Positions 32,589 to 39,596 of a stretch of 39,596 nt of DNA are shown in pieces (positions within the stretch are counted from its first letter, which is position 1; each line of letters opens with the position of its first letter). A program made the translations under genes and the position numbers. This DNA comes from Oscillospiraceae bacterium (lineage in GTDB: Bacteria; Bacillota; Clostridia; Oscillospirales; Oscillospiraceae). Under the pieces are notes generated by a model. It saw only the letters and a program-made list of their open reading frames with translations, did no database searches and had not been told where the DNA came from. Where the stretch lies: positions 1-39,596 of the forward strand of contig JAITKI010000033.1 in the NCBI GenBank assembly GCA_031278515.1. Direction: 5' to 3'.

Positions 32589-35500
32589 GTGGCTACCGCA
32601 ATTGACAGGATAATATCGTTGCGCGCGCGGAAAGCGTCGTCTGTGGGCGCGACTTCCGAGGCGGGCGCCGCGTGGGAGACGTCCGACGGGCGTGTGATTT
32701 CCGCGCCTACGCGCACACTTGCGCGGATTAAGGCGTTGCGGGAGTCCGGTACGGCGCGGTCGGCGGATGAGATTTTGCGCGAGGTACGCGAAGAGCAGGA
32801 GGCGGAGCGGACGGAGGCGGCGCGGGCGGCTGTTGAGGCGGCTGTGAAGGCGCGTAACGCGTCGCCGCTCGAGTCGTGGCTGCCGCGCGCTTCGACCGAC
32901 GAGGTCGCGCGGTACCATGAGCAGAAGCAGGAGCAAATTGACAAACTCCAATTCGCCGAGGCGGGTTTGCCGTTTCCGACGGGCGCTGACGCTGTGCGGG
33001 ATTACGCGGATTCTGAGTGGTCTGTGCTGCGTGAACGCGGCGCGGCGCGGAAGTACAACGCGAATCGCGCGGAGTACGATAAGTTGGCGGCTTTGCCCGC
33101 GACTCCGGCAAACGCCGCCAAGATGGCGCTTCTCAACGCGGATATGGAGGGGTATATCCGCTACGGGGATAATAAGAACGAGTATACCGAGCGGAAGAGC
33201 GCGTATGATAAGGGTTTGGATGATACGCGCGCCAGACTTGCGGAGTTGAAGGATACTGATTGGCAGGAATATGAGCGGCTGCTTAGAGAGACAAAGGAAA
33301 AGACGCCGCGGTACAACGCCGAGAAACAGTCGCTGGATGAGTTTTCATCTTCCCGGCAGAAGTCGGAGCGCGCGGCATACGCGGAGGCTTTGAAGATTGA
33401 GGATGAGCAATATCGTTTGAGGGCCGATTCCGGCTCAAAGGCGTACAAGAGTACCGTAAAGCTCGGGCAGGCGGAGGCGGAGCGTATCGCGGGTTTTACG
33501 GCAGACGAGACTACGGCGGCGACGGGAGATAAGTCGTCGCCTTTGACGTATACACAGCAACGTATCGTAAACAGAATCGTTCATGGGGCTTCCGCCGCTA
33601 AGCCTGTGTCGTACGAGCCCGGGTACGTCGATGTTACGGGTAAGGATTATTATGGGAAGTACGATTATCTGTCCGATAATGAGAAGACTGATTTCTATTA
33701 TTATCTCGGCAAGGGCGATACAGATGGCGCGTTTCGGTATCTCGGTATGCTCGGGACGACGCTCGAGGCGCGTGAGACGGGGAAGTACAAGGAGGATTTG
33801 AGCGCGGCGGCGAAGGAGGATCCCGCGGGGGGCGCGTTTTTGCAGTTTATGGCGAATTTCGCAACGCCGGGTGATTTGCTTGCTATGGGCGGCGAGGCGT
33901 TGGCGAACGCTGTCAGGGGCGACGCCAAGTACGAACCGGCGCGCCCGTCGAGTTCCGCGTATAGGGCGTCACAGAGTGTGTCGGCGCTGGGGCAGGGCGT
34001 CGAGGCGCGTATAAGGGAGGGTCTTGACGATACTAAGCCTGTGTTTCTCGGTATGACAATGGCGGATTTGGCGGGTCAGGGGTATCAGCTCGCGCAGTCT
34101 ATTGCGCAGTCCGGCGCGAATATGGCGCTGTTTGGGCCGGCGAGCATTTACGTGATGGGCGCTCAGGCGGCGGGTAACGCGGCGTACAACGCGGCGGAGC
34201 GCGGGTTGGCTCCGGATCAGGCGTTTTTGCTCGGACTCGGGAGCGGCGTCGTTGAGGCTGTCACGGAGAAGGTGTCTGTCGATCGTTTCTTCAAGCTGTT
34301 GGAGCAGGGTAAAAAGTTGAGCGCGAAACAGATGCTTTTGCAGATTGCGCAGCAAATGGTGGCGGAGGGCAGTGAGGAGGTCGTCGCTGAAGAGCTTAAC
34401 AATTTGGTCGATATTTTTGTTGCGGGCGACGCTTCGGAGTACGCGCGTTACAAGGCCGGGCTTGTCGAGAGCGGTATGAGCGAGTCCGAGGCGGAGAAGT
34501 CGGCTATGCTGCAATACTTCGTAAAGAACGCGGCGGTGGCCGGTATTGGGGGCGCTGTTTCCGGCGGTTTGTTCGGCGGCGCGGGCGCTGTGGGGAATAA
34601 CGCGCGAGTCGCCGCCTATGAGCGCGCCGTACAGGGCGCACAGGCTGCGCAGGGTGGTATAGTGCCGCAGGGTGGTACAGTGCCGCAGGGGCGGGAAAAT
34701 TCGCTTCCCGCGGCGATACAGGGCGATACGGCGCGGGGTAACGCGGCGAGGCCGGATGTGGCCGGTCTGATTCAGTCCGGGCCGAATCTGAGCAGACAGG
34801 AGGCTGCGGCTGCCGCGCTTGCGTCGGGCGATACTGATGTCAACGCAATCTTTCCGGCGGCGCGGAACGCCGGTTACAATCAGGGCGAGAGAGAGGGCGC
34901 GGCTGCGGATGGCGTGACTGCGGACGGCGATGTCTCAAATTTGTCGAGTCCGTGGGATTTGACGGCTGCCGATGTGACGGAACTTTTCGACGCTTACGAG
35001 GTTGCGCGGGAGGATAGGCCGGACGCGCAGAGGGCTGCGGATATTATCAACAAGGTGCAGCTGGGCGAGCAGTTGGGCGAGGCCGAGGTGATGCTGCTCG
35101 TCGAGTATCCGGAGTTTGCGTCTATCGCGGCGGAGTATGAGAGTTCAGAGCTTGGCGGGCGCGGTTTGGCGGATAGTGCGGCGCGGCAGGGCGACGCGGG
35201 ACAGGTTGTGACGGCGCGGGACAGTACGGGACAGGTCAATACGCAATCGGCGGCTCAGGCGGGTCAGGCGCAAGGCGCGTCGGTTTCCGGTGTAATCGGA
35301 CTAAATGGGGAGGTTTCAGGTAATGGCGAACAGGGCGGAGCGCAACAGCGAGGCGAGATACTTGATAGAGGATACGGACGGGTTTCTGATGAGTCTGACG
35401 GAGTCGCAGTTGAAAATGTATCGGGAGAACAAGGGCAAGACTATCCTGCCGAGGTCAGACGAGCGGCAGATAATAGACGAAATCTTTTACCAAATCAGGG

Positions 35501-38500
35501 GGCGTTATCCCCAAGGGTAAGTCCGGAGTCTCTCGGTATTACGGGCGGTTTCGGATACGGGTCGCTGCTGGAGCTGCCTAAATCCGTTTGGGACGAGGGT
35601 TTGAGCGCGTCGGCAAACGAGGTGAGACGGACTACGGGCGGCAATGTGCGGTTCGTGCTGGGTAAAATTCAGGTGCGGGGCGCGGGCAGTACTCGCGGTG
35701 TTCTGCTCGCCAATGGCGATATGGTTGTTCAGGCGGACGATTTGGGCGCGACGGCGGAGCAGGTTACGCGTCATGAGTTGTTTCACGCTTTGAATAAGGC
35801 CTCCGGTTCCGTATTGGTCGAGGCTATACGCGCCGAAATCAACAGGATGTTTCCTGATGATTCGTCGCTCCGGGGCGCTATTGAGACGTACTATAAGCAT
35901 TACATGAAGGCGCTCGCGGGTCATGGGTTGGCTCGCGAGCAGATTGAGTCGTATATCCTGGAGGAGATTTTCGCGGACGCTTACGCGGGTATAAACGCGT
36001 TCGGCGTCGATACGTCGCGTTGGTCTGAGATCTCCGCGCGATACGCCAACGCTGCCGCCGACCGGGCGGCCTCGGCGCGGTCGCAGACGGAGGCCGCTAC
36101 CGCCAGAACTACCGGGCCGCCGGATGTGACGCGGTTCAGCGTCAATCCGGATTTCGCGCAGGAAATTGATGAGTGGGACGGACGAGCGAACACGACATTT
36201 ACTGTCGGGAGTACTTCTGACGCGCTTAAAAGTATAGGTGTCGCCGACCGCGGTATAGTCTGGCATGGGCAAAAAATCGCGGAGATATTGCGCAAGCACG
36301 ACGGAATGAGCCGCGATATTATCAAGCAAGTGCCGAATATGCTTGAACGTCCTGTAGTCGTCGTAAAGTCGCGCAACAGCGACAGTCGTATTGTTATTTT
36401 CGGAGAAGTATACGACCGCAAGGGAAGCCCTGTTACTGCCATACTGGAGCTTATGCCGACTTCGCGCGGCGGCGAGCTGCTTGATATGAATGTCGTCGTC
36501 AGCGCTTACGGTAAGGACTCAAACGCGGCGTCTTTCATAAGAAACAGCGATCTCTTGTATCTTGATCCGGATAAAAATAGAACCGAAGCTTGGTTGAGCG
36601 CCGTTGGGCTCCAATTGCCCTCAGTTGCGTTCAACAAGTTCGGCTCTGTGGGGTCTGTGTCGTATATTGACGGTAAAGTCAAAATTGACGGCGTCCCCTT
36701 TACACGTAATATACCCGATTCCAAGGCAAAAAGCAATAGGAATTCCGCAAATAATCAAAGTCAGTCGGATAGTACAACAAAAGTTGAAGATTTTACAAAA
36801 GATGATATCACGCCGGAGGCTATCGAGAGCAATCGGGACGCGCTGCAAAAGTATTCCATAGCGTTCCACGGTTCGCCTTACAGCTTCGATGAGTTCCTGC
36901 TTGACCATATCGGTTCCGGTGAGGGCGCTCAGGCGCACGGCTGGGGGCTGTACTTTGCGGCGGACGAAAAGCTTGCCGCGAAGTACAAGGACGTGTTGAG
37001 CGAGAGGCGGCGCAACAAGTTCATTGTTGACGGTAAGCAGTTTACCGGCGTACAGCTGTACGATGAGTTCGCCGTTGACAGTCCTGAATACATAGGCTCT
37101 CACGCGCTCAAGGACGCGAACGGCGACGTTTCCGGGGCTGTGAAGTTTCTGCGTGGCGTTATCGCCGATTTGGAGCGAAACGAGCCTGTCGCGCCTGCGT
37201 CAGTGTACAGGAACGCCACTGTGGAGGCGGCGAACGAGGCGATTGCGGCGATTTCAGACGGACGCGTGTCATACGACTCGACGCCTGCTCCCGGCGCGCT
37301 GTACACCGTGGATATTCCGGACGAGGATGTCATGCTCCGGGAGGATGGGACGCTTTGGGATCAGCCGGATTTCATACAAGACTTGCTTGAAGAGGAGTTC
37401 GACGAGGCTTCTTACATCGATAACGCCACGGGGCGCGATGTGTATTTGCGGCTTTCCGACGAGTACGGGAAGCGCGGGGCGTCGGAGTGGCTTAACGAGC
37501 GCGGCATAAAGGGTATTGTGTACGGCGGTCGGCGCGACGGTAAGGCTTATGTGGTGTTCGATGACAAGGCGATTAAGATTCTTGATAAGGCGGCGGAGGT
37601 CGTCTCCGGGGGCGCGGAGCAGAGGTTTAGTATCGGAGAGGCCGAGGACGGTACGCGGTTCGTCGAGGTGGATACGGATCAGCATTTGTTTGACGGCGCG
37701 GCAATAAGTGATTACCCGAAAATTGCAAGGCGGTACATACGGGCGAGGTTTCGGGGTATCCCGCTTCAAGTTGGTACAAACGGAACCGCTCGTGTCTCAA
37801 ACCGTTCCGCCGGAGAATACGCGCATAGCGCGCGACCGTATAAAGCGCGCGCGGCAACGGAACTTGACAATTTATTAAAAGTATCCAAATACTCACATTC
37901 CGCGCCGGACGAAAGCGGACGGAAATTTGCTTCGGACGGCTGGGAGTACCGGGCTGTAAAATTCCGAGTTGACGGCGTAATGTTTGAAGGGCTGATAAAC
38001 ATCGCAAAATCTCCGAATGGCGCGCTTTTCTACGATATGACAAACATAGAGCCTTCCGCCCTAAACGGTCAGACGAAAAACTCGTCCTCCGCCTCCCTGA
38101 TGGCGAAAAGCTCTGTTGCCAATAATATATCCAACTCCGGCGCAAAAAGCAATAGGAATTCCGCAAAAAATCAAAGTCAGTCGGATAGTACAATAAAAGT
38201 TGAAGATTTTACAAAATTCAGTCTGTCGGAGCCGATTGAGGCGACGCGTGACCTAATCGCGGTACATAACCTGTCCGTTGGGCAGTTGAATGAGAGTATT
38301 CGGCTGGGCGGCTTCGCTATGCCGAGCATAGCCGTAACGACGTCGGAGATGGAACACGACAGATACGGTGATGTTACGGTGCTGTTCGGCAGGGATACGA
38401 TAGACCCCAAGCGGAGCCGGAACAACAGGGTGTACAGCGGGGACGCGTGGACGCCGAGTTTTCCGGAGACGGGGTATAAGGCGAATTCGGCTGTTGTGAG

Positions 38501-39596
38501 AAACGCGCGGAGTATCCGCAATCGGCTCCTGGAAAAGTATGGGCTGGCTTACGGGGATTTACCGGTGTTTGACGCGAGCGAAGTTGAAAGCGACCTGCGG
38601 CGGTCAAACGGCAATTTGTCCGAATTCTATGCGCATAGCAATAAAATGAGATTGATGTACGCGCTCGACAAGGGCCTTGCCCAACCGATATACAAGGCAA
38701 AAGATTACGGCGTGGCTGTTCCCGTGGAGTTCTTTCCCGCGTTGGTTGAAGCGGTCGGAGAGGCGCGTATAACAGAGGCGGCGTCCGGTTCTTCCGATTT
38801 GACGCGGGCGCTTGCGCCTGTTATTACGGAGACGGTAAACGCGTTGTCGCGGGATGAGTACGGCGCGGAGTTGTTCAAAAAAGAAATACCGTTCAGTCAA
38901 TTAGACCATGTTGTGGACGGTCTTGCTAAATACATCCGCAATGGTTCGGAGCGGGAGCTTGATGTCTACGCGACTCGCGACGCCGTTGACGCCGCGATGA
39001 AGGACGACGGCGGGTATACCCGGTGGCTTGACGGGCTGTTCGACGGCATTGTTGAAAAGCGCGGCATACGCAACAGCAAGGACTTCTTTACCAACTCCGG
39101 TAACAGGCGCGGTTTTGAGGCGCTGTACGACGAGATAACGCTTGACAACATTTTGAAGGCGATGCGGAAAGAAATGCCCAAGGGGGGCGGCTCTTGGCTC
39201 GGGACAAACGGCGTTCGCGCCTCGGCGTCGCGCGAGTTTAAGAGCGTCGATGAGATACGCGGCGCTGCGGGACAGCTTAGGCGGTTAAGCGAAGCGGAAT
39301 ACAGCGCGGCGAAGGACGCGGTCGATGGGCGTATAATGGGCGTAATAAATGAGATGGTCGGCGAAAGCGAAAGTTTCAGCGCGACGGACGCCGCCGCCGA
39401 AGTTCTTACCGGCGCTGTCGCCCGGAGCGTTGAACCCGGCGCGATATATAACTATGTGAGGCGCGAGTGGGGCGAGAGCTTTACGCCGGAGCTTGCGCGG
39501 GAGTTGTCCGAAGCGGCAAAAGAGGCGCGGGAGCTTCCGACCGAGTACTTTGAGGCGAAGCCGAGGCGCATAGTGGGCTTTGACGAGGTTCGCGCG
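32589..39596 (+). CDS. giant multi-module (polyvalent-type) protein, partial; at least 2336 codons with a zincin HExxH module
   Basis: My manual translation found no stop in the frame with codon starts at multiples of 3, from the TAA at 32562-32564 to the window end. SD AAGGAGG (32573-32579) lies 9 nt before GTG 32589. It is missing from the ORF track because there is no stop in the window. HELFH is at 35772-35786. Several conserved-looking modules are separated by low-complexity linkers. See the finding on the frame anomaly at 35290-35520. Confidence 0.75.
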   Translation, partial: MATAIDRIISLRARKASSVGATSEAGAAWETSDGRVISAPTRTLARIKALRESGTARSADEILREVREEQEAERTEAARAAVEAAVKARNASPLESWLPRASTDEVARYHEQKQEQIDKLQFAEAGLPFPTGADAVRDYADSEWSVLRERGAARKYNANRAEYDKLAALPATPANAAKMALLNADMEGYIRYGDNKNEYTERKSAYDKGLDDTRARLAELKDTDWQEYERLLRETKEKTPRYNAEKQSLDEFSSSRQKSERAAYAEALKIEDEQYRLRADSGSKAYKSTVKLGQAEAERIAGFTADETTAATGDKSSPLTYTQQRIVNRIVHGASAAKPVSYEPGYVDVTGKDYYGKYDYLSDNEKTDFYYYLGKGDTDGAFRYLGMLGTTLEARETGKYKEDLSAAAKEDPAGGAFLQFMANFATPGDLLAMGGEALANAVRGDAKYEPARPSSSAYRASQSVSALGQGVEARIREGLDDTKPVFLGMTMADLAGQGYQLAQSIAQSGANMALFGPASIYVMGAQAAGNAAYNAAERGLAPDQAFLLGLGSGVVEAVTEKVSVDRFFKLLEQGKKLSAKQMLLQIAQQMVAEGSEEVVAEELNNLVDIFVAGDASEYARYKAGLVESGMSESEAEKSAMLQYFVKNAAVAGIGGAVSGGLFGGAGAVGNNARVAAYERAVQGAQAAQGGIVPQGGTVPQGRENSLPAAIQGDTARGNAARPDVAGLIQSGPNLSRQEAAAAALASGDTDVNAIFPAARNAGYNQGEREGAAADGVTADGDVSNLSSPWDLTAADVTELFDAYEVAREDRPDAQRAADIINKVQLGEQLGEAEVMLLVEYPEFASIAAEYESSELGGRGLADSAARQGDAGQVVTARDSTGQVNTQSAAQAGQAQGASVSGVIGLNGEVSGNGEQGGAQQRGEILDRGYGRVSDESDGVAVENVSGEQGQDYPAEVRRAADNRRNLLPNQGALSPRVSPESLGITGGFGYGSLLELPKSVWDEGLSASANEVRRTTGGNVRFVLGKIQVRGAGSTRGVLLANGDMVVQADDLGATAEQVTRHELFHALNKASGSVLVEAIRAEINRMFPDDSSLRGAIETYYKHYMKALAGHGLAREQIESYILEEIFADAYAGINAFGVDTSRWSEISARYANAAADRAASARSQTEAATARTTGPPDVTRFSVNPDFAQEIDEWDGRANTTFTVGSTSDALKSIGVADRGIVWHGQKIAEILRKHDGMSRDIIKQVPNMLERPVVVVKSRNSDSRIVIFGEVYDRKGSPVTAILELMPTSRGGELLDMNVVVSAYGKDSNAASFIRNSDLLYLDPDKNRTEAWLSAVGLQLPSVAFNKFGSVGSVSYIDGKVKIDGVPFTRNIPDSKAKSNRNSANNQSQSDSTTKVEDFTKDDITPEAIESNRDALQKYSIAFHGSPYSFDEFLLDHIGSGEGAQAHGWGLYFAADEKLAAKYKDVLSERRRNKFIVDGKQFTGVQLYDEFAVDSPEYIGSHALKDANGDVSGAVKFLRGVIADLERNEPVAPASVYRNATVEAANEAIAAISDGRVSYDSTPAPGALYTVDIPDEDVMLREDGTLWDQPDFIQDLLEEEFDEASYIDNATGRDVYLRLSDEYGKRGASEWLNERGIKGIVYGGRRDGKAYVVFDDKAIKILDKAAEVVSGGAEQRFSIGEAEDGTRFVEVDTDQHLFDGAAISDYPKIARRYIRARFRGIPLQVGTNGTARVSNRSAGEYAHSARPYKARAATELDNLLKVSKYSHSAPDESGRKFASDGWEYRAVKFRVDGVMFEGLINIAKSPNGALFYDMTNIEPSALNGQTKNSSSASLMAKSSVANNISNSGAKSNRNSAKNQSQSDSTIKVEDFTKFSLSEPIEATRDLIAVHNLSVGQLNESIRLGGFAMPSIAVTTSEMEHDRYGDVTVLFGRDTIDPKRSRNNRVYSGDAWTPSFPETGYKANSAVVRNARSIRNRLLEKYGLAYGDLPVFDASEVESDLRRSNGNLSEFYAHSNKMRLMYALDKGLAQPIYKAKDYGVAVPVEFFPALVEAVGEARITEAASGSSDLTRALAPVITETVNALSRDEYGAELFKKEIPFSQLDHVVDGLAKYIRNGSERELDVYATRDAVDAAMKDDGGYTRWLDGLFDGIVEKRGIRNSKDFFTNSGNRRGFEALYDEITLDNILKAMRKEMPKGGGSWLGTNGVRASASREFKSVDEIRGAAGQLRRLSEAEYSAAKDAVDGRIMGVINEMVGESESFSATDAAAEVLTGAVARSVEPGAIYNYVRREWGESFTPELARELSEAAKEARELPTEYFEAKPRRIVGFDEVRA
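35323..35520 (+). CDS. 65-aa ORF in an alternative frame inside the giant ORF
   Basis: GGGGAGG (35307-35313) lies 9 nt before ATG 35323. It reads MANRAERNSEARYLIEDTDGFLMSLTESQLKMYRENKGKTILPRSDERQIIDEIFYQIRGRYPQG and is bounded by TAA at 35302-35304 and 35518-35520. By hand count about 74% of its codons end in G/C, against about 37% for the giant-ORF frame over the same stretch. Confidence 0.45.
   Translation: MANRAERNSEARYLIEDTDGFLMSLTESQLKMYRENKGKTILPRSDERQIIDEIFYQIRGRYPQG
36726..36800 (+). repeat. 75-bp dispersed direct repeat, copy 1 (linker inside the giant ORF)
   Basis: GCAAAAAGCAATAGGAATTCCGCAAATAATCAAAGTCAGTCGGATAGTACAACAAAAGTTGAAGATTTTACAAAA is 73/75 identical to 38142-38216. It encodes AKSNRNSANNQSQSDSTTKVEDFTK. 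Confidence 0.9.
38142..38216 (+). repeat. 75-bp dispersed direct repeat, copy 2
   Basis: Same sequence as 36726-36800 with 2 substitutions. It encodes AKSNRNSAKNQSQSDSTIKVEDFTK. Both copies are AT-rich compared with the surrounding ORF. Confidence 0.9.

What the first reader, a model, noticed from the sequence alone, without database searches (positions are those of the whole stretch)
35290..35520. Coding signal flips frame for about 230 nt inside the giant ORF; a self-contained 65-aa ORF with its own SD sits there
Third-position G/C in the giant-ORF frame is high up to about 35290. It drops to about 37% (my hand count) between 35290 and 35520, then recovers right after 35520. Over the same interval the +1 frame has about 74% G/C at third positions. 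That frame encodes a globular-looking peptide (MANRAERNSEARYLIEDTDGFLMSLTESQLKMYRENKGKTILPRSDERQIIDEIFYQIRGRYPQG), preceded by GGGGAGG-N9-ATG and bracketed by TAA stops (35302-35304 and 35518-35520). The sequence GGTGTAATCGGACTAAATGGGGAGG looks like a typical stop-SD-start gene junction, except that neither TAA is in the giant frame. There are three possibilities. The element may ancestrally have held three genes that became fused in frame. A small gene may be overprinted within a linker of the giant protein. Or an indel or assembly error may be hiding the real stop of the upstream gene, though the downstream part would then lack an obvious start. I saw no canonical slippery heptamer.
Basis: seen in the sequence. 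Interest (0 to 1): 0.6.

Follow-up and report, generated by a model that had tools for sequence, protein, structure and literature searches.

The report
Hidden small gene inside giant phage gene
A complete 65-codon gene with its own ribosome-binding site is written one base out of frame inside a giant phage "polyvalent" protein gene. Every related giant gene examined carries it too, so it is a real, conserved gene-within-a-gene of an undescribed protein family that annotation pipelines miss.

Summary
Giant-frame GC3 falls to 0.35 at 35290-35520. That is the minimum of the whole 2,336-codon ORF, whose mean is 0.65. The +1 frame there holds GGGGAGG-N9-ATG...TAA, a 65-codon ORF.

It is not an assembly error and not chance. 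More than 30 independent assemblies have the same +1 ORF at the same place, nested in an uninterrupted giant frame. They include phage genomes rated complete and 18 loci retrieved without using the small ORF. All 18 distinct small-ORF sequences checked have an SD 6-10 nt before the start codon.

Substitutions in the overlap follow the small frame. Giant third positions differ in 29% of codons there, against 58% in the flank (p = 2e-27).

A profile built only from the nested peptides finds 233 protein clusters. Many carry the domain in frame in ordinary 150-590-aa proteins, several of them membrane-anchored and next to prophage-type genes. No Pfam, NCBIfam or PHROG model matches.

The giant frame reads the same bases as a disordered linker plus the first helix of an HExxH (zincin-like) domain.

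Most likely the small protein starts independently on the same mRNA. Its function is unknown, and a link to the HExxH module is only inferred.

The parts
32589..39596 (+). Giant polyvalent-protein ORF, at least 2,336 codons. It is cut by the contig end. This is the host frame.
   Evidence: Open frame. Pfam matches: MuF_C at aa 1231-1331 (8e-17) and PBECR5 at aa 1875-2122 (7e-44), with weak LPD3 and ART-PolyVal. There are 212 homologues, most of 2,400-3,600 aa. The window is the whole of contig C96.
35302..35304 (+). TAA that closes the +1 frame just upstream of the small gene.
   Evidence: An upstream +1 stop is not conserved among relatives: that frame is open for 253 codons in L005.
35307..35313 (+). 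Shine-Dalgarno GGGGAGG, 9 nt before the ATG. In the giant frame it is read as Gly-Glu.
   Evidence: All 18 distinct relatives checked have GGAGG, AGGAG or GGAG 6-10 nt before the start codon. This explains the family-wide giant-frame motif N-G-G.
35323..35520 (+). Nested small gene in the +1 frame: 65 codons plus TAA. Product: MANRAERNSEARYLIEDTDGFLMSLTESQLKMYRENKGKTILPRSDERQIIDEIFYQIRGRYPQG.
   Evidence: Orthologous ORFs appear. The substitution pattern follows this frame. The profile finds 233 protein clusters. The AF2 model has a beta-hairpin at residues 12-26 and helices at 27-36 and 44-59, mean pLDDT 70.
35232..35438 (+). Giant-frame reading of the upstream part (aa 882-950): a predicted disordered linker rich in Gly, Arg, Gln, Ala and Glu.
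   Evidence: In the AF2 model of giant aa 882-1188, residues 1-69 have pLDDT below 50, with 10-residue block means of 26-38. Composition.
35448..35498 (+). Doubly structured stretch. The giant frame encodes the first helix of the HExxH domain (aa 954-970, AEVRRAADNRRNLLPNQ). The +1 frame encodes helix 2 of the small protein (residues 44-59).
   Evidence: The conserved giant motif RQN..R.LR and the small-frame motif DRIVQEIYG are the same bases.
35520..36110 (+). HExxH domain of the giant protein, directly downstream of the small gene's stop. HELFH lies at 35772-35786 and the conserved EEIFADAYAG at 35961-35990.
   Evidence: Invariant H, E, H and a later E plus ADAYAGINA in 14 sequences. pLDDT above 90, with helix, beta-strands and helices. 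No Pfam match and no Foldseek PDB match.

Best explanation
The 231-nt interval is a dual-coding stretch. A complete small gene sits in the +1 frame of the giant polyvalent-protein gene: SD at 35307-35313, ATG at 35323, TAA at 35518-35520.

Shown here:
- The small frame is the one that selection mainly preserves in this stretch.
- The giant frame stays open through it.
- The layout, including the SD, the start and the stop position just before the giant-frame motif VSSxxLG, is shared by every relative examined.
- The small protein belongs to a real, undescribed domain family that also occurs in frame in ordinary proteins.
- AF2 predicts that the giant frame reads the first two thirds of the overlap as a disordered linker and the last third as the first helix of an HExxH domain.

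Inferred:
- Ribosomes start independently at the SD-ATG on the same mRNA and make a 7.7-kDa protein (beta-hairpin plus two helices). Ribosomes in the giant frame read straight through.
- The small gene is the older reading and the giant frame came to run through it when modules were fused.
- Because the small gene always accompanies the HExxH module, its product probably works with that module or with the polyvalent protein, for example as a partner, chaperone or regulator of processing. This last step is the weakest.
For: 1. Composition. The GC3 minimum of the whole giant ORF lies exactly here. The same dip is seen in the closest homologue.

2. Orthologous nested ORFs.
- L002, about 44% identical in the giant protein, encodes MANRAKGQEARYLIESEDGFLMSLTESQLK... 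with the same start and stop.
- Same-genus MAGs G113 and G203 and more distant genomes have it too.
- So do 15 IMG/VR contigs and remote versions L015-L018.

3. Unbiased sampling. 15 of 15 viral loci fetched by the HExxH domain alone carry it, of which 13 were contigs not seen before. So do 3 of 3 homologues chosen because their giant-frame alignment started after the segment. Profile E-values range from 2e-35 to 2e-10.

4. Copy number. Twenty viral records each hold exactly one copy. Fourteen of them are at least 90% complete and three have terminal repeats.

5. Start signals. An SD plus ATG (16), GTG (1) or TTG (1) is present in all 18 distinct loci.

6. Substitution pattern in 9 non-overlapping pairs.
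- In the overlap, giant positions 1/2/3 differ in 0.437/0.377/0.293 of codons.
- In the downstream flank the values are 0.428/0.354/0.576.
- Giant position 3, overlap against flank: p = 2e-27.
- Small-frame position 3 against position 2: p = 7e-7, with the same direction in 9 of 9 pairs.

7. Independent existence of the domain.
- A profile of nested peptides only hits 233 representatives at E <= 1e-3, and 74 at E <= 1e-10, among 1.84 billion.
- Of the best 150, 66 are longer than 100 aa. They carry the domain in frame, for example P0126, P0131, P0139, P0140, P0155, P0160 and P0191.
- At these in-frame copies the other two frames are closed.
- P0160 shares features specific to the window's subfamily (NKGKTVMPRADRQAIKDEIVSRIYG, EIFYRIMGRYPDG).

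8. No RNA-level alternative. Folding z-score is +1.44 and there is no credible Rfam match (one chance-level hit, E 0.83, outside the interval).
Against: - There is no expression evidence of any kind.
- Openness of the +1 frame is not significant in any single genome. Given the giant amino-acid sequence its probability is 0.2-0.7 per locus, and other +1 open runs of 70-130 codons exist in the same genes.
- Amino-acid identity is similar in the two frames: 39% for the small frame and 35% for the giant frame.
- The giant-frame segment aligns across the family.
- The fold model is only moderate (pLDDT 70), built from 11 sequences, and has no structural neighbour.
- The function is not established. 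The link to the HExxH module rests on co-occurrence only. The two may simply travel together as one DNA cassette.
Confidence: 0.85

Rival explanations
1. By-product. Only the giant frame, or a nucleotide-level element, is under selection. The +1 ORF and its apparent conservation are passive consequences.
For: The giant-frame segment aligns across more than 80 homologues with conserved motifs. The +1 frame has few possible stops given the giant amino-acid composition, so its probability of being open is 0.2-0.7 per locus. Identities in the two frames are similar.
Against: - Giant third positions are the least variable class in the overlap (0.293) but the most variable in both flanks (0.58-0.59). 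That is the opposite of what selection on the giant frame alone would give.
- The SD and start codon are kept in 18 of 18 loci.
- The stop position is kept.
- The peptide family exists in frame in unrelated proteins, where the giant-type frame is closed.
- There is no RNA structure (z = +1.44) and no credible Rfam family match (one chance-level hit, E 0.83, outside the interval).
Confidence: 0.05
2. Programmed +1 ribosomal frameshift. Ribosomes translating the giant frame slip into the +1 frame near the SD-like GGGGAGG, as the internal SD does in prfB. The product would be the N-terminal ~905 aa fused to the small domain and ending at 35520, alongside the full-length protein.
For: An SD-like element inside a translated ORF is a known stimulator of +1 shifting in prfB (my own knowledge). 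The +1 frame is open upstream of the ATG in some relatives, for 253 codons in L005 and 22 in L027.
Against: - No known +1 shift site (CUU UGA C, CUU AGG C and the like) and no in-frame stop or rare-codon pause lies between 35305 and 35325.
- In the window, and in L019 and L020, a +1 stop sits right at the SD, which leaves only 5-6 codons for a shift.
- The sequence between the SD and the start is not conserved, whereas a start codon at canonical spacing is.
- The two mechanisms do not exclude each other.
Confidence: 0.05
3. Artefact. An indel or misassembly in this MAG contig hides real stops, so that three separate genes look like one giant ORF with a frame flip.
For: The source is a fragmented MAG with 161 contigs, 89% complete. 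Read pileups could not be inspected.
Against: The same uninterrupted giant frame with the nested +1 ORF recurs in independent assemblies from JGI, ENA, Logan, NCBI and IMG/VR, including viral genomes rated complete. The giant frame before and after the interval is homologous in the same frame, with no shift needed. No start codon is available for a separate downstream gene.
Confidence: 0.02

Closest known systems
Rz/Rz1 embedded spanin genes of phage lambda
   Same: A complete small gene lies wholly inside a larger phage gene, on the same strand, in the +1 frame, with its own ribosome-binding site. Both products are functional.
   Different: Rz1 is an outer-membrane lipoprotein of phages of Gram-negative hosts. 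The peptide here has no Cys, no signal peptide and no lipobox. The host gene is a giant polyvalent protein, not a lysis gene, and the small protein belongs to a different, undescribed family.
comS nested out of frame in srfA-B of Bacillus subtilis (my own knowledge, not tested here)
   Same: A short gene (46 codons in comS) with its own start is embedded out of frame in a giant multi-module ORF and translated from the same transcript.
   Different: comS sits in a non-ribosomal peptide synthetase gene and has a narrow taxonomic range. The gene here is conserved through a diverse phage family. It also has in-frame homologues in other proteins.
TnpV-family genes nested in the linkers of conjugative-element polyvalent ORFs
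   Same: The architecture is the same: a small gene with its own SD, out of frame, where the giant polyvalent frame is a low-complexity linker.
   Different: The small protein is different. The peptides here have no Pfam match, to TnpV or any other family, at E <= 0.1-1. They are half the length (57-79 aa against about 118). The host genes are of phage type (MuF_C, PBECR) rather than conjugative methylase-helicase genes. Here the 3' part of the overlap also encodes a structured helix in the giant frame.
Polyvalent proteins of phages and conjugative elements (Iyer et al. 2017, PMC5512222)
   Same: The host ORF is a typical member: giant, multi-domain, with MuF_C and PBECR5 and weak sub-threshold matches to LPD3 and ART-PolyVal, plus an HExxH module. 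The paper proposes that such modules process the polypeptide.
   Different: In a term search of the main text, the paper has no occurrence of 'overlapping' or 'frameshift'.

Membership tests
Same-strand out-of-frame nested gene (Rz/Rz1- or comS-type architecture) | A complete ORF lies wholly inside a longer ORF, on the same strand, in another frame. | tested here: met
   The small ORF 35323-35520 lies in the +1 frame of 32589-39596. The layout is the same in more than 30 related loci.
Same-strand out-of-frame nested gene (Rz/Rz1- or comS-type architecture) | The nested gene has its own translation-initiation signals. | tested here: met
   GGGGAGG-N9-ATG in the window. SD plus start codon in 18 of 18 distinct loci. 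This is sequence-level evidence only.
Same-strand out-of-frame nested gene (Rz/Rz1- or comS-type architecture) | Purifying selection acts on the nested frame. | tested here: met
   The codon-position substitution pattern follows the small frame (p = 7e-7 and 2e-27). In-frame homologues exist elsewhere.
Same-strand out-of-frame nested gene (Rz/Rz1- or comS-type architecture) | Both products are actually made. | not testable with these tools
No Ribo-seq or proteomics data were available.
Spanin Rz1 (o-spanin) | Lipoprotein signal peptide with a lipobox Cys. | tested here: not met
   The 65-aa product has no Cys and no hydrophobic N-terminus.
TnpV (Pfam PF14198) | A match to the family profile. 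| tested here: not met
   hmmscan against Pfam reports no TnpV match for the window peptide at E <= 0.1 or for three relatives at E <= 1.
Polyvalent protein (Iyer et al. 2017) | A giant multi-domain protein combining domains typical of this class (MuF, PBECR, LPD, ART, MPTase). | tested here: met
   MuF_C 8e-17 and PBECR5 7e-44, with weak LPD3 and ART-PolyVal. phrog_22978 at 4e-100.
Zincin-like metallopeptidase of polyvalent proteins (MPTase) | HExxH in a helix, a downstream Glu-bearing helix, and a beta-sheet flanked by an N-terminal helix. | tested here: inconclusive
   HELFH at aa 1062-1066. H, E, H and a later E are invariant in 14 sequences. The AF2 topology fits the description in PMC5512222. 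There is no Pfam match at E <= 10 and no Foldseek PDB match.
Programmed ribosomal frameshift site | A conserved slippery or shift-prone site with a stimulator at the frame junction. | tested here: not met
   By inspection, no known +1 shift motif or X XXY YYZ heptamer lies in 35290-35330. Apart from the SD, the 21 nt upstream of the starts are not conserved.

The most novel reading that the evidence does not exclude
The nested protein is an obligate partner of the HExxH module that always follows it. It might be a stoichiometric inhibitor or chaperone, made from the same mRNA, that keeps the polyvalent protein's processing peptidase silent or correctly folded in the producing cell until packaging. 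The membrane-anchored proteins that carry the same domain lie next to Cro/CI-type regulators or an integrase. They could use the domain to engage incoming polyvalent proteins, which would be a form of superinfection exclusion. More generally, the disordered linkers of polyvalent genes would be preferred sites for nested genes. The TnpV cases noted elsewhere in this scan would be a second example.
Probability: 0.15. Interest if true: 0.85.

Novelty: new member of a known kind. Interest (0 to 1): 0.62.

Why it matters
Well-supported long same-strand overlapping genes are few in bacteria and their phages, and gene callers discard them by design.

In this case a hidden gene is present in every member examined of a widespread group of giant phage genes found mainly in uncultivated gut-type phages and proviruses of about 40-47 kb. 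Its product defines a protein domain family of at least 233 sequence clusters that Pfam, NCBIfam and PHROGs do not list.

The case also shows that amino-acid conservation in the annotated frame can be a shadow of a gene in another frame. That matters for domain definitions in polyvalent proteins, because the conserved motifs before the HExxH module are the small gene's SD and codons.

If the small protein proves to act on the HExxH module, it would give a way to study how these injected multi-effector proteins are processed.

Tried and rejected
- The search for related loci and the search for homologous proteins with the first two peptides (A1) found nothing. These tools need shared exact words. 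A profile search of all representatives later found 233 hits.
- A 15-sequence alignment of the giant frame was too diverse for the search for related loci.
- blastn of the region and tblastn of a nested peptide against GenBank phages gave no match. The family is known only from uncultivated sequences.
- The small protein has no match in Pfam, NCBIfam or PHROGs. The in-frame carriers had no Pfam match at E <= 1e-3, except a restriction-endonuclease (Mrr_cat) domain in P0191.
- Foldseek against PDB gave no significant match for either the small-protein model or the giant-frame model. The 'viral' library was not searched.
- The ORF-openness test (synonymous resampling of the giant codons) is not significant per locus, so I do not use it as evidence. 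The first version of that script timed out.
- Comparing amino-acid identity in the two frames does not discriminate.
- RNA structure and Rfam gave nothing.
- The G148 hit (L008) lies in what looks like a histidine kinase and is probably spurious. L007 and L014 are marginal or rearranged loci that I could not interpret.


Full report
**1. The observation**

The window is the whole of contig C96 of a fragmented MAG (2.0 Mb, 161 contigs, 89% complete). A single frame is open from GTG 32589 to the contig end, 2,336 codons.

The interval reads ...TAA(35302-35304) ATG GGGAGG TTTCAGGTA ATG(35323)... and the +1 frame then runs for 65 codons to TAA 35518-35520.

GC content at giant codon positions 1/2/3 is 0.714/0.468/0.351 in 35290-35520, against 0.614/0.460/0.655 for the whole ORF. 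In 77-codon windows this is the GC3 minimum of the whole ORF, 3.3 SD below the mean, and the only place at or below 0.40.

One qualification applies. G+C at giant position 1, which is small-frame position 3, is high in neighbouring blocks too. The specific signal is the collapse of giant-frame GC3.

**2. The host gene**

Pfam finds MuF_C (aa 1231-1331, 8e-17) and PBECR5 (aa 1875-2122, 7e-44), with weak LPD3 and ART-PolyVal. PHROGs gives phrog_22978 at 4e-100. This is a phage-type polyvalent protein in the sense of Iyer et al. 2017 (PMC5512222).

A search with aa 760-1160 found 212 homologues. Most of those listed are 2,400-3,600 aa long.

**3. Giant-frame conservation, and why it does not settle the matter**

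The closest homologue, P0003, aligns straight through the interval at 56% identity. More than 80 distant homologues align from about aa 905 onward and share motifs: NG.Q, GR, G.QAG, AEQSRAA..RQN....LR, VSS..LG.

The DNA of P0003 (locus L002) tells a different story. At the same place it has a +1 ORF encoding MANRAKGQEARYLIESEDGFLMSLTESQLKTYQANKGKTVLQRPDWPQIREEIVSRVYGPKNG. That peptide is 66% identical to the window's, with the same start, the same stop position and the same GC3 dip.

**4. How widespread the nested ORF is**

- A six-frame search of 400 genomes of the same family with the two peptides found it in two same-genus MAGs (E 2e-29 and 2e-21) and, more weakly, in other genera.
- There the giant frame is only 30-35% identical, yet the +1 frame again holds a 71-79-codon ORF with the motif E.RY.hE.EDGahhSVPEsKLe.W..AQ ... 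EQRLkDRIv.EIYGskK*.
- A scan of IMG/VR with two such peptides gave 15 viral contigs. In each, a +1 ORF (57-73 codons from its SD-linked start) is nested in a giant frame open for more than 770 to 1,070 codons.
- More remote versions form a second subfamily with ...GTYKPD.... They turned up in an order-wide search (L015-L018).

To avoid circularity I then fetched loci without using the small ORF at all.

- 15 viral loci were found through the downstream HExxH domain alone. All 15 carry a +1 ORF that matches a profile of nested peptides (E 2e-35 to 2e-10) and ends just before the giant-frame VSS..LG.
- Three homologues were picked because their giant-frame alignment began only after the segment (P0037, P0056, P0014). 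All three have it as well, with E values of 2e-14, 7e-22 and 3e-28.
- Twenty viral records of 26-47 kb each contain exactly one copy. Fourteen are at least 90% complete by CheckV and three have direct terminal repeats.

An assembly artefact in this MAG is therefore excluded.

**5. Which frame is under selection**

Three tests were uninformative or weak.

- Openness of the +1 frame is not significant per locus. Its probability is 0.2-0.7 given the giant amino-acid sequence, and other +1 runs of 70-130 codons exist in these genes.
- Amino-acid identity is similar in both frames, 39% against 35%.
- Both results are expected when two frames share the same bases.

Three tests are informative.

(a) Start signals. 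All 18 distinct loci have GGAGG, AGGAG or GGAG 6-10 nt before an ATG (16 loci), GTG (1) or TTG (1). The giant-frame motif N-G-G is this SD read in the other frame.

(b) Substitution pattern, in nine non-overlapping sequence pairs.

| Region | Giant pos. 1 | Giant pos. 2 | Giant pos. 3 |
|---|---|---|---|
| Overlap | 0.437 | 0.377 | 0.293 |
| Downstream flank | 0.428 | 0.354 | 0.576 |
| Upstream flank | 0.49 | 0.48 | 0.59 |

- The giant frame's wobble position is the most variable class outside the overlap and the least variable inside it (Fisher p = 2e-27).
- Within the overlap, the small frame's third position varies most and its second position least (p = 7e-7, same direction in 9 of 9 pairs).
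- So the coding signal flips in evolution as well as in composition.
- Small-frame third positions (0.437) are still less variable than flank wobble positions (0.576). This suggests that the giant frame also imposes some constraint.

(c) Independent existence of the domain.

- A profile built only from nested peptides (A5) was scored against 1.84 billion representative proteins. It found 233 at E <= 1e-3 and 74 at E <= 1e-10.
- Of the best 150, 84 are 100 aa or shorter. Many of these are probably nested ORFs that a gene caller picked up. P0123-P0125 are nearly or fully identical to nested peptides found here, and P0127 sits on a 621-bp contig fragment.
- The other 66 are longer proteins with the domain in frame, most often in the C-terminal third.
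- In L009, L013 (= P0191) and L035 (= P0160), the other two frames are closed at the domain.
- P0160 even shares the window subfamily's peculiarities (NKGKTVMPRADRQAIKDEIVSRIYG and EIFYRIMGRYPDG).

The small frame therefore encodes a genuine protein domain. RNA-level explanations find no support: the folding z-score is +1.44 and there is no credible Rfam match.

**6. What each frame encodes**

AF2 with the 11-sequence alignment predicts the following for the small protein: a beta-hairpin (residues 12-26), a helix (27-36) and a second helix (44-59), with mean pLDDT 70. There is no PDB neighbour and no Pfam, NCBIfam or PHROG family.

For the giant frame I modelled aa 882-1188 with 14 sequences.

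- The first 69 residues are predicted disordered, with pLDDT below 50 (10-residue block means 26-38).
- A helix at aa 954-970 lies still inside the overlap.
- It is followed by a confidently folded domain (pLDDT above 90) with the invariant HExxH (HELFH, aa 1062-1066) and a later invariant Glu in EEIxADAYAGINA.

This topology fits the description of zincin-like MPTases in PMC5512222. Neither Pfam nor Foldseek confirms it, so I call it an HExxH, probably zincin-like, domain.

About 50 nt (35448-35498) therefore encode a helix in both frames. The giant motif RQN..R.LR and the small-frame motif DRIVQEIYG are the same bases.

**7. Mechanism**

The most economical reading is independent initiation at the conserved SD-ATG on the giant gene's mRNA. 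Ribosomes in the giant frame read through.

A programmed +1 shift from the giant frame cannot be excluded, but it has no recognisable site. In the window, and in L019 and L020, it would have only 5-6 codons in which to occur. It also would not explain the conserved start codon.

On origin, the small frame has the normal codon-position signature (G+C and variability are both highest at its third position and lowest at its second) and has in-frame relatives. The giant frame reads most of the stretch as low-complexity Gly/Arg/Gln/Ala/Glu. This fits a pre-existing small gene that was read through when modules were joined, better than de novo birth inside a linker. The direction is an inference and was not tested by phylogeny.

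**8. Function**

The function is unknown.

- The nested gene accompanied the HExxH module in every one of the 18 loci sampled without reference to it. This holds across giant proteins whose other domains differ: PBECR3, PBECR5, LPD23, an ADP-ribosyltransferase-toxin domain and others. I read this as a functional link, or at least a cassette link, to that module.
- Three of the in-frame carriers lie beside Cro/CI-type HTH genes, an integrase or a ClpP-family protease gene.
- Many carriers are membrane-anchored: 25 of 60 by a crude hydrophobic-stretch count.
- The domain is therefore phage-associated in both guises.

A role as partner, chaperone or regulator of the polyvalent protein's processing module is my best guess, at perhaps 15-30%. 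It is not shown.

**9. Comparison with what is known**

The architecture is that of lambda Rz/Rz1 and of comS inside srfA-B (my own knowledge). The product fails the one spanin feature tested, a lipobox Cys. No Pfam match to TnpV or to any other family was found.

Earlier unchecked notes of this scan report TnpV genes nested in the linkers of conjugative-element polyvalent ORFs. The present case would be a second, unrelated small gene using the same kind of site, this time in phage-type polyvalent genes.

A term search of the founding paper on polyvalent proteins finds no occurrence of 'overlapping' or 'frameshift'. My literature searches found no description of this gene.

**10. Limits**

- The sequence pairs used for the substitution test were chosen not to share members, but they are not strictly independent phylogenetically.
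- The fold model is of moderate confidence.
- The function and the direction of origin are inferred.

Noticed in passing
window 36726-36800 and 38142-38216: Two near-identical linker peptides (AKSNRNSA[N/K]NQSQSDST[T/I]KVEDFTK) separate modules of the giant protein. Low giant-frame GC3 windows start nearby, at 36573 and 37986. Here position 1 is also low, so this is AT-rich linker DNA and not a frame flip. Another first-reader note covers the repeat.
   Followed up: partly
P0122 (6,660 aa): The top hit of the nested-peptide profile is a 6,660-aa protein with 20 matched stretches, the best covering only the beta-hairpin part (profile positions 14-29). It looks like a repeat protein built from a YLxExEDG-like unit. 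I did not examine it.
   Followed up: no
L035 702-1694; L051 1101-2417; L052 3499-4104: In-frame carriers of the domain (P0160, P0155, P0126) sit next to prophage-type genes: a ClpP-family protease with an integrase, an HTH_3 gene, and a divergent Cro/CI-type HTH_3 gene with a cell-wall hydrolase gene nearby. This position is typical of lysogeny or immunity modules.
   Followed up: partly
L016 (G651:C48), oriented 1083-2870 with the small ORF at 1411-1725: A much shorter host ORF (596 codons) carries the HExxH domain and a nested ORF of the second subfamily (...RDGTYQPDKAK...). The module-plus-nested-gene unit is therefore not confined to giant proteins.
   Followed up: no
L014 (G562:C2), oriented 1186-1689: A 168-codon ORF has the hairpin-helix motif at its C-terminal end after a longer, normal-looking N-terminal part. 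It overlaps a 395-codon frame. This may be a rearranged or intermediate arrangement. L007 is similarly unclear.
   Followed up: partly
L045-L049 (IMG/VR 3300045988 contigs), about 1022-1204: In this lineage the nested ORF has no ATG. It appears to start at TTG, 8 nt after AAGGAG, directly after a +1-frame TAA.
   Followed up: partly
window 35305-35307: A second in-frame ATG lies six codons upstream of the SD-linked ATG, directly after the TAA (TAAATGGGGAGG). L019 and L020 have the same TGA-ATG-GAGG arrangement. This ATG overlaps the SD and has no SD of its own, so it is probably not the start.
   Followed up: partly
window 39596 (contig end): The contig stops inside the giant ORF, so the C-terminal modules and the rest of the presumed prophage are missing. 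Upstream of the giant gene, earlier first-reader notes (unchecked) describe a sensor kinase, an IS and a defence-like cassette, so the element's edge probably lies within the window.
   Followed up: no
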